The notes under the pieces: generated by a model
Told to the model about the DNA's origin: nothing
Databases searched by the model: none
What the model saw: only the letters and a program-made list of their open reading frames with translations
Position numbers and translations under genes: made by a program
From: an uncultured bacterium
Lineage (GTDB): Bacteria; Patescibacteriota; Gracilibacteria; Absconditabacterales; Absconditicoccaceae
NCBI GenBank assembly: GCA_964293055.1
Contig: CAXYYI010000001.1
Coordinates: forward strand, 1 to 30,729
Reading direction: 5' to 3'
Length of the DNA: 30,729 nucleotides
Shown here: positions 11,193-30,454 of the stretch, one piece after another
Numbering within the stretch: the first letter of the stretch is position 1
How the letters are laid out: each line of letters begins with the position of its first letter

Positions 11193-12830
11193 ATGACATT
11201 CAAAAAGTTATTTACTCTTCTTACTGTGTCTATATTCTTGGTGCAATCAACATATGCAGCATCAGTAGCATCTTTTGTAGTAGAAGTAAATCCATCTACT
11301 GCGTGAATTAATCAAGCAGTAGACTTAACAGTAAAAGCTGTTGATAGTAATGGTGCTGTTGTCAAAGACTATGCAAATAATATTTTTATAGAAGTACCAG
11401 CAATCAAAGATCTCCAAGATGTGAGTCTACCAAGTGATGGTATCTATACATTTTCTGCACAAGACCAATGACAAAAAACTTTCTCAAAATGATTAACAAT
11501 TAAAGCGCCAGGTACATATACTGTACAAGTGAGTGATATAGAAAATGAAGCTATTAAGTGACAAGCACAAATTGTCGTGCAAGCTGGTAGTACAGAACCA
11601 ACAACTCAAGGAACAATGACTATTTCATCTCCACTACCAAATGCTACTGAAACAAATAGTACAGTAAGTGTTGTGGGAAATGCATGAGTTAAAAACGCAA
11701 AAGTAGAAGTCATGCTAAATGGAACAAAAGTAAAAGAAGAACAATCAAATCAAAATGGAGATTTCACTGCATTTGTCACTGATCTTACTCCATGACAATA
11801 TACGCTGAAAACAGTTGTTAAAGATGTAAATAATAATGTTTTAGCTAGTTCTGCTGATATACCATTTACATATCAAGCTGCACAATTAGGAGATATTAAA
11901 GCATTTGATGTTCTACCAAGTAAAACATTGAAACAATGACAAAAAGCGACATTTACAGTACGTGTATGAAATGATACAACAAGTGTTGAGTTGATACTTC
12001 GTAGCGCATGAGGTAAAGAAATGAAATTACCTTTGGATAAAATGCAAGATGGTGTTTTCCAAAAACAACTTCTTATGGATACAGCAGAAACATATACAGT
12101 TAGTGTTGCATATAGTATGGGAACAGAAAAGAAAACACAAGACAATGCTGCAACTATAACAGTACTAGAAGGGAAAGGGATCAGAGAGGTGACATATAAG
12201 ATTGATCCAATTGATAAAACAGCATTGGCGTTGGAATGGAAACCTATTGGACAAGTAGATTACGTCTTAGTACAATATGGTACTGAAAAAGATGCGCTTG
12301 CATCAAGTATGGTGCTCACAGGGACAACATGACAACTTCTGGGTCTTGATCTTGGAAATAAGTCATACTATATGAGACTCTTCCCAGCAAATGAGAAAGG
12401 GGATATTGCATGAGAACCATCTGATATTATTTTGGTAGAACAACTACAAGGATCAGCTCCTGTTTGTAGAGTAGAGTGAATTGTTGTGTCAACAACAAAA
12501 ATATGAGATCAATACTTCCTTACGCGAACTGCTGCAGAAAACGCAGAAAGATATATCATTTATCGCTCTGATAGACCGGTGAGATCAATTGCAGAAATGC
12601 AAAAAGTAGGGGAAACATCTGATCTAAAATTCCCATATCCATTTGACCCACAAGCCAAAACAGAAGGATATGCATACTATGCTGTTGTTGCAGTCTGCCA
12701 AGATGGAAATGCAGTACAACTATGAGATGCAAAAAAAGTAAAAGTATGACCTGCAACAAATGCTATTCTGCTTCTTCTTATCTCATGAATGATATTTGGT
12801 ATTTATCGTATGAGAAAATTAAGTAATTAA
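11193..12830 (+). CDS. Secreted surface protein with Ig-like/FN3 repeats and C-terminal anchor, 545 aa
   Basis: Signal peptide ending TYA-A; Ig-like segments (VDLTVKAVDSNG, GTYTVQVSD, LTPGQYTLKTV); FN3-like LEWKP and LT(CGA=W)TAAENAERYIIYRSD; C-terminus KVGP plus TM helix plus RMRKLSN. Confidence 0.8.
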
Positions 12831-12859
12831 AGTATATTAGTATATTGTCCTTATTATAG

Positions 12860-12887
12860 AAAAACTCCTCATAGTAGAGGAGTTTTT
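12860..12887. terminator. Bidirectional intrinsic terminator
   Basis: AAAAACTCCTC-atagta-GAGGAGTTTTT between convergent genes. Confidence 0.85.
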
Positions 12888-12905
12888 TATATATAATATT
12901 ATGTG

Positions 12906-14165
12906 TTAGTCTACTTTTACAGAGATTTTTCCGATAATACTGTCTCAATATGATACGATAAGATCAGATGATCCACTATCTTTAGCCTCAATGAGTGATA
13001 CTACTTTCCCTTCACTAACATATCTTATGACACGAGGAGAAAGCATTACATTTTGTTTTGATGGAGTAATTGAAATTTCTTTATCAAGTACTCATGCAAA
13101 TTCCTTTCCATTCTTATCCTTGATAACAATACCAATACTACTAGATCATCCTTTTTTGAGACTGTTTCAGAAGTTAGATACAATTGATATTGTGTATTTT
13201 TTCAAGAAATCTTCGCTTGAAGTGATATTATTACTTGAAAGGGAAGTACCAACTTGTGTTATAGTAGGAGCTACTTTTACAGGAGTTACGGTTTTTACTA
13301 TTGTAGGTTGTTTTGGTGTTGTAACGACTGTTTTTGGAGTTTCTACTACGGTTGGTGCTAGCGCTACGATTTTAGGTTTAGTGTTTTTTATAAGACTTCT
13401 TGTTACTACTTTACTCGTAGGAGCAGCTGTTAATGTAGGTGCTGGAATGATACCATTGTATTCAATAAATGCAATTGGATCAACTGTTCTTGCAAAGAGA
13501 GACTCTCTACATAATCCTTTTTCTACAATATCATAGTCGTTCGTTTTTGGGTAATCAAGACATCCTTGGAAAGCATATGTATTGTCTTTTGTCTTATTGA
13601 TTGCAAAGTGAAGATGATTTCCCCAAGCCATTCATTCATGTCCCATTGTCCCAATTTGTACTCCTTCTTTGATAGTATCTCCTTCTTTGACACTATAACT
13701 TTCTAGATGTCCATAGATAGAATATACTACTGATTTATCTGATAATATATGTTTGATTGTTACGAGATTCCCATAACCATATGTTGCTCTTGCTCTTACA
13801 ATTTCTCCGTCTTCTACTGCATAAATTGGTGTTCCTTCAGAACTTACTATATCTACTCATTCATGCGTCCCTTTTGACATATCCCATCCATCAGAATACG
13901 GTGCTCACCAAAGTACCGAATATATTAATCTTGTTGTTTGATTATCTTTATATGCAGCGTAGTTTGCTCTAGCAATAACTGGTAAAGCCATTTTACAATC
14001 TGCTGAAAGTTTGCTCCAGTGATCTTGCTTACATGACGGTTTTGCTACTTCTTTTACAGGATAAGACCATGCATAAGAAATATTGTCATAGAAAAATCCT
14101 GTTGCTTGTATACAGAGTACAGTTCGTATAGCTACTTTTTTTCGCAAGTGAGGGCGTCTGCTCAT
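12906..14165 (-). CDS. Secreted M23 family metallopeptidase with Pro/Thr-rich linker and C-terminal beta domain
   Basis: HEGVD (HxxxD; Gly = TGA), GTPIYAV..G, GYGNLVTIKH, YGHL, GNHLHF. Joins track ORFs 13905..14201 and 13167..13631 and runs to TAA 12906-12908. Start 14165 is chosen because the promoter overlaps the ATG at 14201. Confidence 0.88.
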
Positions 14166-29050: not shown

Positions 29051-29085
29051 ATGTATTGATACAAGAAAAATAAAATATGATATTC

Positions 29086-29859
29086 TTATTCAAGTCGTTG
29101 ATAGTCTTTATGTTTTACAAGCTTGATTGTTCACTTTTTGTGTTCATCCATAAGTGCACACATAATGATATTGTTAGTATCAAGCAGTTTATAGAAGTGT
29201 ACTAAGATTCTTGTTTGACATTCTAGTCATTTTTCTGTTATCTTAAGGTCAAATTTTGGATTACTATCTCTTGCTGTTGAGTCTGCATAGTATGTGTCAT
29301 CTTCAAGGGTTTTGAAGTACTCTTTCATGATAATTGTACGATATGTTTGGAAAATTTCTTTTGCGTTTTTACCACTTACATCAAGGAGAATAGTAAAGTC
29401 ATGCCAGAAAAGGAGGTCTTTTCTTGTATAGTTAAAAATACCTCAAGTAAATACCAAATTATTAGGTACAGAAATAACTCTACCTGTAAAAAGCATTTCA
29501 CTATCAACTTCTCTCACTGTCGTAAAGAAAAATCAGATACGTCTTACTTCACCAATAGCACTCATAAAAGGGTTACCAGTTTTGATAATATCTCCTTCTT
29601 CAAATTGAGCTGTTGAGGTAATATAAATATATGCAAAAAAACTTGATACAAAATTTTGTAATGATACTACAATTGCAGCTCAAAAAAATGATGCTCCAGT
29701 AAGCAGGTATTGATTTTTATAAAGGAAGTATCATCAGATCACAAGTAAGATGATTGTCAGAAATCATCTAAGATGGACATAGTGCCTTCATTTTTGGATA
29801 AGTTTTTGTTCAATTTTTTCTTGATGTCAGAGGTGGTTAATCATAGCGGCGTTTGACAT
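29086..29859 (-). CDS. Small-conductance mechanosensitive channel MscS family protein (short), 257 aa
   Basis: Two TM helices, then FEEGDIIK..IGEVRRIGFFFTTVRE..TGRVISVPNNLVF..IFNYT. Confidence 0.8.
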
Positions 29860-29911
29860 AATGTATAATAAAAAAAGTAGAGTGTTTATGGAGAGTAGTA
29901 TAGATATTATA

Positions 29912-30454
29912 TTACTTGCTACATTTTATTGATACTTTTTTTAAGAAACGAGTTCTTTTTTCTTGAGAACAAGTCATTGTGTGAGCAAGAATATCTGTAG
30001 AAATATGTTTCATGCCAGTATATCATATTCTTCCCATAGTTCGGGTAATAAACCAAATAAACGGATAGAAAAATGATGGACCACCTGCAGTTGCGACAAT
30101 CCTTACTTTTTTGCCTTGTAAAAGCCCTACTTCTTTCCCATTTTCATTTGTTTTATATGCAAATCATTTATTGAGGTTGGTATCAATAAAGTTTTTCATA
30201 ATTGCAGGGCAGTCAATCCATCGAATAGGAAAAACAAATATAATTTCATCAGCTTTTGTGATATGTGCATGAATATCTTCTTGATGAGGAATTGGCTCTC
30301 TAGAAAAAACAAGAAAAGGTTGTGGATATTGATTATACAGATCAATAACTTCTACATTATGTTTATTTGCAAGAGATTTTTCTTTGATCGTAGTAACAAT
30401 TGATTCTGTAAAACTTCATTTTTTAGGATGTGCATAGATAATAAGTTTATTCAT
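29912..30454 (-). CDS. Flavodoxin-fold NAD(P)H:quinone oxidoreductase (MdaB/KefF-like), 180 aa
   Basis: LIIYAHPKKGSFT, VIDLY, ADEIIFVFPI(CGA=W)WIDCPAIMKNFID, ATAGG. Confidence 0.88.

What the first reader, a model, noticed from the sequence alone, without database searches (positions are those of the whole stretch)
12525..30223. Second recoding: CGA behaves as tryptophan in host genes
CGA occupies conserved Trp or aromatic columns in unrelated families: CrtI GV-W-YP (28400-28402), quinone reductase FPI-W-W (30221-30223, next to a TGG), LyeJ F-W-CMAMH (25839-25841), CrtB NDN-W-EKYM (26873-26875), FN3 LT-W-TA (12525-12527) and AAA ATPase FIN-W-GAYP (15961-15963). TGG is also in use. CGA/CGG-to-Trp reassignment has been computationally predicted for Absconditabacterales (Codetta study), so this suggests the taxon. 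Even a table-25 annotation will mistranslate these proteins. The only in-frame CGG I noticed (45-47) is uninformative.
Basis: partly seen in the sequence, partly recalled or inferred. Interest (0 to 1): 0.7.

Follow-up and report, generated by a model that had tools for sequence, protein, structure and literature searches.

The report
CGA read as tryptophan, known recoding
This small parasitic-type bacterium (order Absconditabacterales) uses the normally arginine codon CGA for tryptophan in nearly all its genes, a code change predicted by computation in 2021 but never shown by experiment, and two acquired genes in the same genome still use CGA as arginine.

Summary
All six cited codons are in-frame CGA, and each lies on a Trp or aromatic column of its family.

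Across the genome, 537 CGA codons were aligned with CGA/CGG masked to a complete relative (G106). They pair with TGG (162) or CGA/CGG (130), and with Arg codons only 10 times. CGT and AGA pair with Arg codons 53-68% of the time.

The genome carries a tRNA(UCG) with Trp identity marks: A1:U72, G73 and no A20. All nine same-family genomes examined share this type. Thirteen genomes from other families of the class carry an ordinary Arg-type tRNA(UCG).

The genome is an Absconditabacterales member: TGA=Gly, 33% GC. So this is the CGA/CGG-to-Trp code predicted by Codetta (Shulgina and Eddy 2021). It is already known, and a 2026 paper states it is still unverified by experiment.

One thing is new and unexplained. 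ppdK in the window and a gltS-like gene on another contig have no TGA. They place CGA/CGG on invariant Arg columns and exchange them with CGT/AGA between close relatives, under strong purifying selection. A blanket CGA=Trp translation would therefore mistranslate these two genes.

The parts
28400..28402 (-). CGA, codon 217 of CrtI (phytoene desaturase): Trp-type
   Evidence: W in 74/80 homologues. W or Y in PDB 4dgk and 4rep. TGG in G106.
28025..28027 (-). CGA, codon 342 of CrtI: aromatic/hydrophobic column
   Evidence: W 27, F 27, L 25 of 80. TGG in G106.
30221..30223 (-). CGA, codon 120 of flavodoxin-like quinone reductase, next to a TGG: Trp-type
   Evidence: Aligned to W (3lcm), W (4r81) and Y (NQO2). 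CGA in G106.
25839..25841 (-). CGA, codon 245 of UbiA-type prenyltransferase (LyeJ-like): Trp-type
   Evidence: W in 118 of 150 representatives; 25 R, likely mistranslated relatives.
26358..26360 (-). CGA, codon 72 of the LyeJ-like gene: hydrophobic/aromatic column
   Evidence: TGG in G106. L/F/I/Y/W in the family.
26873..26875 (-). CGA, codon 208 of CrtB (phytoene synthase): probably Trp-type; weakest of the six
   Evidence: W in PDB 5iys; a nearby W in CrtM under a shifted alignment. GCG (Ala) in G106.
27254..27307 (-). Three further CGA codons of CrtB (codons 81, 67, 64, at 27254, 27296, 27305): Trp-type
   Evidence: All three are TGG in G106.
12525..12527 (+). CGA, codon 445 of a secreted FN3/Ig-like repeat protein: Trp-type
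   Evidence: TGG in G106.
15961..15963 (-). CGA, codon 186 of AAA_14/DUF4143 ATPase: Trp-type
   Evidence: TGG in same-genus G134. CGA in G106.
8683..8685 (+).
   Evidence: TGG in G106. Pfam 60KD_IMP.
20020..20022 (+). TGG in the LDGWG motif of iPGM; the reciprocal case
   Evidence: Same-genus G134 has CGA at this position.
17123..19834 (+). ppdK, the exception. It has 0 TGA and 5 CGA. Those at 17828, 18782 and 19778 lie on invariant Arg columns. The one at 18104 lies on a clade-specific Arg column. The one at 17978 lies on a hydrophobic column.
   Evidence: R in 28/28 order-level homologues and in PDB PPDKs. Swaps with CGT/AGA/CGG occur in relatives of 87-93% identity. dN/dS is 0.09-0.12.
45..47 (-). 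The only in-frame CGG of the window: uninformative
   Evidence: Aligned to ATT in G106.

Best explanation
The window comes from an Absconditabacterales genome (class JAEDAM01, formerly SR1/Absconditabacteria). On top of TGA=Gly, it reads CGA, and almost certainly CGG, as tryptophan.

Proposed mechanism:
- The CGN box is split. CGU and CGC are read as Arg by a tRNA(GCG) carrying the Arg mark A20.
- CGA and CGG are read by a tRNA(UCG) that has lost A20 and gained the Trp marks G73 and A1:U72. Relatives also have a tRNA(CCG) of the same type.
- The single TrpRS therefore charges these tRNAs with Trp.

What is shown:
- The codon sits where Trp sits.
- It exchanges freely with TGG, and not with Arg codons, between relatives.
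- The tRNA features are present and are confined to this family.

What is inferred: the actual charging of the tRNA, and the residue inserted in vivo.

Two acquired genes (ppdK and a gltS-like gene) do not follow this rule.
For: Site evidence:
- The six cited sites and about a dozen others in the window lie on Trp or aromatic columns.

Genome-wide, with CGA/CGG masked in the queries:
- Against standard-code outgroups G051 and G058, CGA aligns with W 16-26%, Y 11-13%, F 9% and R 4-6%.
- On the same outgroups, CGT and AGA align with R 46-52%, and TGG aligns with W 36-41%.
- Against complete relative G106, 537 CGA codons pair with TGG 162, CGA/CGG 130 and Arg codons 10. For 1648 CGT codons the counts are TGG 4 and Arg codons 881.
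- The reverse comparison gives the same picture. G106's CGG also pairs with TGG (33%).

tRNA evidence:
- tRNA(UCG) on contig C137 has A1:U72, G73 and U20.
- tRNA-Arg GCG, UCU and CCU all have A20.
- The Trp-type tRNA(UCG) is found in all 9 same-family genomes with a hit.
- An Arg-type tRNA(UCG) with A20 and A73 is found in 13 genomes of other families of the class.
- Complete G106 has CCA, UCG and CCG tRNAs that are all Trp-type, and no Arg-type reader of CGA/CGG.
- Each of five genomes has one TrpRS.

Code, taxon and literature:
- TGA is Gly (55-58% aligned to G) and a tRNA-Gly(UCA) is present.
- GC content is 32.9%.
- The published prediction is Shulgina and Eddy 2021, PMC8629427.
Against: - No experimental evidence exists. 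A 2026 paper states that these Arg-codon reassignments are still unverified.
- CGA sits on somewhat less conserved positions than TGG: 54% against 67% in the Trp-codon set versus G106, and W 16-26% against 36-41% versus outgroups. Full equivalence with TGG is therefore not shown.
- ppdK and a gltS-like gene use CGA/CGG on invariant Arg columns under purifying selection. A simple uniform CGA=Trp decoding does not explain this.
- No tRNA-Trp(CCA) or tRNA(CCG) was found in this 74%-complete assembly.
- CGG has only 13 aligned codons here.
Confidence: 0.9

Rival explanations
1. CGA is decoded ambiguously. The tRNA(UCG) keeps the ArgRS determinants C35 and G36, so it is charged with both Trp and Arg, and every CGA gives a mixture of the two residues.
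For: - CGA occurs on Trp columns in most genes but on invariant Arg columns in ppdK and the gltS-like gene.
- CGA lies on less conserved positions than TGG.
- The sampled long, TGA-poor native genes have no CGA at all; all 40 of their CGN codons are CGT.
- The Codetta authors state that ambiguity cannot be excluded.
Against: - CGA is common on deeply conserved Trp positions and exchanges with TGG at 13-30% of sites, as a near-neutral change would.
- Usage is segregated by gene, not by how well a site tolerates change.
- With a mixture, three to six Arg-type CGA codons per ppdK would leave little active enzyme. Yet dN/dS is 0.09-0.12.
- A20 is conserved in all true Arg tRNAs and absent from tRNA(UCG).
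Confidence: 0.07
2. CGA is still arginine, and the Trp-like columns arise from chance or alignment bias at a rare codon.
For: A few CGA codons align with Arg codons or with R: 10 of 537 against G106, and 4-6% against outgroups.
Against: - CGA/CGG were masked as X in all genome-wide alignments, so no bias towards W is possible.
- R is 4-6% for CGA against 46-52% for true Arg codons.
- Pairing with TGG has an odds ratio of 197 and p = 2e-159.
- Complete relative G106 has no Arg-type tRNA for CGA.
Confidence: 0.01
3. The Arg-type CGA codons of ppdK and the gltS-like gene are leftovers of recent horizontal transfer, or of contamination, and are simply mistranslated for now. If so, they do not qualify the rule.
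For: - Both genes lack TGA.
- Their nearest homologues outside the order are only about 50% identical: Rhodothermales/Bacteroidota for ppdK and Bacillales for the gltS-like gene.
- Other Absconditabacterales carry a different ppdK, rich in TGA and AGA, with CGA on Trp columns.
Against: - The genes lie between TGA-rich genes on the same contigs, including complete single-contig genomes.
- The AAA-ppdK gene order is kept in G134, G106 and L175.
- The clades span 63-95% identity. CGA/CGG move between different Arg columns in different lineages.
- dN/dS is 0.07-0.12.
- The transfer is therefore old and the pattern is maintained.
Confidence: 0.15

Closest known systems
CGA/CGG-to-Trp code of Absconditabacteria predicted by Codetta (Shulgina and Eddy 2021, eLife, PMC8629427)
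   Same: - Same clade and same two-step code (UGA=Gly plus CGA/CGG=Trp).
- Same tRNA logic: Trp-type tRNA(UCG) with G73 and no A20, tRNA-Arg(GCG) for CGU/CGC, and no tRNA(ACG).
- Same low GC content.
- CGA usage (39 per 10,000 codons) lies at the upper end of the reported range.
   Different: Nothing essential differs; this is another genome of the clade. Added here:
- codon-by-codon exchange with TGG against a complete relative;
- the boundary of the tRNA switch (this family versus other families of the class);
- two genes that do not obey the code, which the paper does not mention (no hit for 'horizontal' or 'dikinase').
NCBI translation table 25 (SR1 and Gracilibacteria, UGA=Gly)
   Same: TGA is Gly here: 24.5 per 1000 codons, aligned to G 55-58%, with a tRNA-Gly(UCA) present.
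   Different: Table 25 keeps CGA and CGG as Arg. It therefore puts about 1000 wrong Arg residues into this proteome, roughly 1.4 per gene.
CGG-to-Trp in Anaerococcus and in RFN20 Bacilli (same paper)
   Same: An Arg codon of the CGN box is taken over by a Trp-type tRNA in a low-GC lineage.
   Different: In those lineages only CGG changes, tRNA(UCG) is lost, and tRNA(ICG) keeps CGA as Arg. Here no tRNA(ACG) exists, and CGA and CGG change together.
Stochastic CUG decoding (Ser/Leu) in Ascoidea asiatica
   Same: It is a precedent for one sense codon having two meanings in one cell. It is relevant to the ppdK conflict.
   Different: In Ascoidea, two competing tRNAs exist and CUG is avoided at conserved sites. 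Here only Trp-type tRNAs are seen, and CGA sits on invariant Trp sites in most genes and on invariant Arg sites in two genes.

Membership tests
Absconditabacteria CGA/CGG=Trp code (Codetta) | UGA read as Gly (table 25 background) | tested here: met
   TGA occurs in frame at 24.5 per 1000 codons. It aligns to G 55-58% in standard-code outgroups, like GGT and GGA. A tRNA-Gly(UCA) lies on C26.
Absconditabacteria CGA/CGG=Trp code (Codetta) | CGA falls on Trp columns, not Arg columns, genome-wide | tested here: met
   Trp-codon set 292/537 and Arg codons 10/537 against G106. W is the top residue against two outgroups.
Absconditabacteria CGA/CGG=Trp code (Codetta) | CGG also falls on Trp columns | tested here: inconclusive
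   This genome has only 31 CGG codons, of which 13 align: 6 to the Trp-codon set and 1 to Arg. The feature is met in relative G106: of 125 CGG, 33% pair with TGG and 22% with CGA.
Absconditabacteria CGA/CGG=Trp code (Codetta) | tRNA(UCG) with G73, no A20, and A/G1:U72 | tested here: met
   C137:1275-1349 has A1:U72, G73 and U20. The same type occurs in 9 of 9 same-family genomes with a hit. The Arg type occurs in 13 other-family genomes.
Absconditabacteria CGA/CGG=Trp code (Codetta) | CGU/CGC kept as Arg through tRNA(GCG); no tRNA(ACG) | tested here: met
   A tRNA-Arg(GCG) with A20 lies on C159, and no ACG tRNA was found. Complete G106 shows the same. CGT and CGC align with R and with Arg codons.
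Absconditabacteria CGA/CGG=Trp code (Codetta) | Low genomic GC (0.26-0.38) with AGA as the main Arg codon | tested here: met
   GC is 0.329. Per 1000 codons: AGA 18.0, CGT 9.6, CGA 3.9.
Absconditabacteria CGA/CGG=Trp code (Codetta) | Placement in Absconditabacterales | tested here: met
   The nearest named CrtI locus is a 'Candidatus Absconditabacterales bacterium' at 75% identity. A gltS-like relative is named Candidatus Absconditicoccaceae. Same-order genomes share gene order and the tRNA type.
Absconditabacteria CGA/CGG=Trp code (Codetta) | Trp actually inserted at CGA in vivo | not testable with these tools
   No proteomic data are available. The literature states that this is not yet verified.
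Uniform (gene-independent) codon meaning | Every gene of the genome uses CGA in the same sense | tested here: not met
   ppdK and the gltS-like gene place CGA/CGG on invariant Arg columns. Enolase, iPGM, RNR, CrtI and others place them on Trp columns.

The most novel reading that the evidence does not exclude
Two codon meanings coexist in one genome. A small set of anciently acquired, TGA-free genes evolves under strong purifying selection as if CGA/CGG were still Arg. These genes are ppdK here, an independent ppdK in G131, and a gltS-like gene. The other roughly 99% of CGA codons, and the whole tRNA set, say Trp. This would imply gene-specific or condition-specific decoding, or that these genes are selected in a standard-code setting.
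Probability: 0.2. Interest if true: 0.9.

Novelty: already known. Interest (0 to 1): 0.4.

Why it matters
Sense-codon reassignment in bacteria is known only from computational prediction, so independent evidence of a different kind strengthens a claim that still lacks an experiment. The evidence here is masked codon-by-codon exchange with TGG, and a tRNA identity switch confined to one family.

There is also a practical consequence. Table 25 puts about 1000 false Arg residues into this proteome, and such errors are already visible in public protein databases as R on Trp columns.

The two genes that keep CGA as Arg show that a blanket CGA=W rule is wrong for a few genes. They also give a sharp test case. 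Peptides from PPDK would show whether one codon can have two meanings in one cell.

Tried and rejected
1. Unmasked alignments were replaced by runs with CGA/CGG, and in one run eight codons, masked as X. This removes any bias towards W.

2. I first suspected that the TGA-free genes at 17-25.5 kb formed a foreign island. That was rejected. Many long genes of this genome lack TGA. Enolase has 0-31 TGA across the order and carries CGA/CGG on Trp columns. TGA-free RNR has CGA on a Trp column. Only ppdK and the gltS-like gene are Arg-type.

3. Context-dependent decoding was tested. The flanking bases and neighbouring codons of 39 Arg-type and 162 Trp-type CGA codons show no clear difference.

4. 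A hidden Arg-type tRNA was sought. ARAGORN and Rfam RF00005 find the same 38 tRNAs in complete G106.

5. A second TrpRS was sought. Each of five genomes has one copy.

6. The origin of tRNA(UCG) could not be settled. Overall identity is 55/75 to a Trp(CCA) tRNA and 52/79 to an Arg(UCG) tRNA of other families in the class. The 17-nt anticodon arm equals that of an Arg-type tRNA(UCG).

7. IDH and the N-terminal RNR CGA sites fall on variable columns and say nothing.

8. My first parse of the ppdK loci assumed plus-strand matches and gave wrong ORFs. It was redone on both strands.
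Full report
**What is there**

The window is contig C1 of a 973-kb assembly with 185 contigs, 74% complete and 32.9% GC. Read with table 25 it is densely coding, with TGA in frame throughout. Across 724 long ORFs of the genome, usage per 1000 codons is: TGA 24.5, TGG 8.8, CGA 3.9 (1013 codons), CGG 0.12 (31 codons), AGA 18.0 and CGT 9.6.

**The six sites**

- **CrtI codon 217 (28400).** W in 74 of 80 homologues from named genomes, W or Y in PDB 4dgk and 4rep, and TGG in relative G106.
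- **Quinone reductase codon 120 (30221).** It aligns with W, W and Y in 3lcm, 4r81 and NQO2, within the conserved FP(I/L)-W-W..PA motif.
- **LyeJ-like prenyltransferase codon 245 (25839).** W in 118 of 150 diverse representatives. The 25 R in that column are most simply other recoded genomes translated with the wrong table.
- **CrtB codon 208 (26873).** W in PDB 5iys but Ala in G106, so this is the weakest site. Three other CrtB CGA codons (27254, 27296, 27305) are TGG in G106.
- **FN3-like protein codon 445 (12525).** TGG in G106.
- **AAA ATPase codon 186 (15961).** TGG in same-genus G134.
- **The reciprocal case.** The TGG of the LDGWG motif of iPGM (20020) is CGA in G134.

**Genome-wide test**

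I fetched a complete standard-code Patescibacteria genome (G051) and part of a same-class genome (G058). I aligned all ORFs to them with the tested codons masked as X.

| Codon | Top aligned residues |
|---|---|
| CGA | W 16-26%, Y 11-13%, F 9%, R 4-6% |
| CGT, AGA | R 46-52% |
| TGG | W 36-41% |
| TGA | G 55% |

I then fetched a complete same-family genome (G106, 936,577 bp) and compared codon with codon.

| Codon in this genome | Aligned | Pairs with TGG | Pairs with CGA/CGG | Pairs with Arg codons |
|---|---|---|---|---|
| CGA | 537 | 162 | 130 | 10 |
| TGG | 1323 | 669 | 219 | 14 |
| CGT | 1648 | 4 | 11 | 881 |

The reverse comparison is the same, and G106's 125 aligned CGG codons pair with TGG (33%) and CGA (22%). 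So CGA and CGG behave as synonyms of TGG, and not of CGT or AGA.

**The tRNAs**

The assembly holds a tRNA(UCG) on C137:1275-1349 with A1:U72, discriminator G73 and U at position 20. The three Arg tRNAs (GCG, UCU, CCU) all have the GGAUA D-loop with A20. These are the criteria used by Shulgina and Eddy.

In a sample of 120 genomes of the class, the Trp-type tRNA(UCG) is present in all nine same-family genomes that gave a hit. Thirteen genomes of other families have a canonical Arg-type tRNA(UCG) with A20 and A73.

Complete G106 has 38 tRNAs by both ARAGORN and Rfam. Its CCA, UCG and CCG tRNAs are all Trp-type, and its Arg tRNAs are only GCG, UCU and CCU. There is one TrpRS per genome, so one enzyme must accept three anticodons. 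That last point is an inference.

**Comparison with what is known**

This is the code predicted by Codetta for Absconditabacteria (PMC8629427). A 2026 paper states that these Arg-codon reassignments have not been verified by experiment. The nearest named relatives are Absconditabacterales and Absconditicoccaceae MAGs. The finding is therefore correct but already known; this genome is a further member of the clade.

**The exception**

ppdK (17123-19834) has no TGA in 904 codons and five CGA codons.

- Three lie on Arg columns that are invariant in 28 order-level homologues and in PDB PPDKs (codons 236, 554 and 886).
- One (codon 328) lies on an Arg column specific to its clade.
- One (codon 286) lies on a hydrophobic column.

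The order holds two kinds of ppdK. One is a TGA-bearing, AGA-rich kind whose CGA/CGG lie on Trp columns. The other is the kind found here, carried by G000, G134, G077, G106, G066 and metagenome relatives. It is 63-93% identical within the group but only about 50% identical to the nearest outside homologues (Rhodothermales/Bacteroidota).

In eight sequences of the second kind there is no TGA at all, and Trp is always TGG. CGA/CGG swap with CGT, CGC, AGA and AGG on Arg columns, even between relatives of 87-93% identity. These columns include the VRLLDPPLHEF arginine, which from my own recollection of the Clostridium symbiosum PPDK literature is the substrate-binding Arg561; I did not check this with a tool.

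The gene order AAA-ATPase then ppdK is kept in G134, G106 and L175. dN/dS is 0.09-0.12. G131 carries a third, unrelated ppdK with the same signature.

A second gene, a gltS-like FMN protein on C37 flanked by TGA-rich genes, behaves the same way.

- Four of its five CGA/CGG codons lie on columns that are R in 105 of 105 distant homologues. The fifth is R in 94.
- CGA/CGG swap with other Arg codons among four lineages.
- There is no TGA, and dN/dS is 0.07-0.10.

The effect is not general to TGA-free genes. RNR has CGA on a Trp column, and the order's enolases carry CGA/CGG on Trp columns. Between G000 and G106, ppdK is the only shared gene with more than one Arg-type CGA.

I found no codon-context signal and no hidden tRNA. 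CGA is depleted in ppdK, at 10% of CGN, but not in the gltS-like gene, at 28%.

None of the simple explanations fits all these facts: contamination, recent transfer, pseudogene or uniform ambiguity. My results confirm it, show that it is old and maintained, and add a second gene.

**Verdict**

Novelty is low because the code is already published. The evidence here is stronger and of a different kind than column statistics alone. The residual interest lies in the two genes that keep the old meaning of CGA.

Noticed in passing
window 17123-19834 (ppdK): ppdK has no TGA and places CGA on invariant Arg columns. In eight related sequences, CGA/CGG exchange with CGT/CGC/AGA/AGG and Trp is always TGG. 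dN/dS is 0.09-0.12, and the AAA-ppdK gene order is conserved. The gene seems to evolve under the standard code inside a recoded genome.
   Followed up: yes
G000 contig C37:2500-4041 (locus L162:201-1742), outside the window: A second gene shows the same behaviour. It is an FMN-binding glutamate-synthase-family protein with 0 TGA. Its 4 CGA and 1 CGG lie on Arg columns that are invariant or nearly so in 105 distant homologues. It is flanked by genes with 12-22 TGA each.
   Followed up: yes
L112 (G131:C2, ppdK): This is a third, independent ppdK lineage, only 41-46% identical to both other kinds. It also lacks TGA, and four of its five CGA codons lie on conserved Arg columns (the fifth is on a Lys column).
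   Followed up: partly
whole genome G000 (e.g. C13:3374-6877, C24, C14:6918-9020, C4:3165-4334; window 22566-23852 and 24025-25464): Many long genes have no or very few TGA codons, although TGA makes up 36% of Gly codons overall. The sampled long TGA-poor ORFs also contain no CGA, CGC or CGG (all 40 CGN are CGT). These ORFs were not identified. The pattern looks like avoidance of both recoded codons, perhaps in highly expressed genes.
   Followed up: partly
window 19873-23852 versus G106:C1:266823-273232: In G106, ppdK is followed directly by pyruvate kinase. Here iPGM, a small reverse ORF and enolase lie between them. A tblastn search found no iPGM or enolase in complete G106.
   Followed up: partly
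alignment of 150 LyeJ-like representatives, columns of window codons 22, 245 and 341 of 25536-26573: Public protein databases carry R on otherwise invariant Trp columns (5, 25 and 8 sequences at these three columns). These are probably Absconditabacterales proteins translated with table 11 or 25.
   Followed up: no
G000 C137:1275-1349 versus L185 (G203): The 17-nt anticodon arm of the Trp-type tRNA(UCG), ACGGTCTTCGGAACCGT, is identical to that of an Arg-type tRNA(UCG) from another family of the class. The acceptor stem and D-arm differ. This hints that an Arg tRNA changed identity, rather than a Trp tRNA changing its anticodon.
   Followed up: partly
G000 C18:5174-5770 (minus strand): A 199-aa TGA-free ORF of 43% GC with no Pfam match. 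Its Gly/Arg-rich tail holds four of its five CGA codons (…GRA-R-R-GSGPC-R-GC-R). It may be another Arg-type user of CGA, or it may not be a gene.
   Followed up: no
G106:C1:358616-359500: A 295-aa gene of the relative in which CGG/CGA align with R at three sites and with W at one site in outgroup G051. This is a possible case of mixed usage within one gene, resting on a single outgroup.
   Followed up: no
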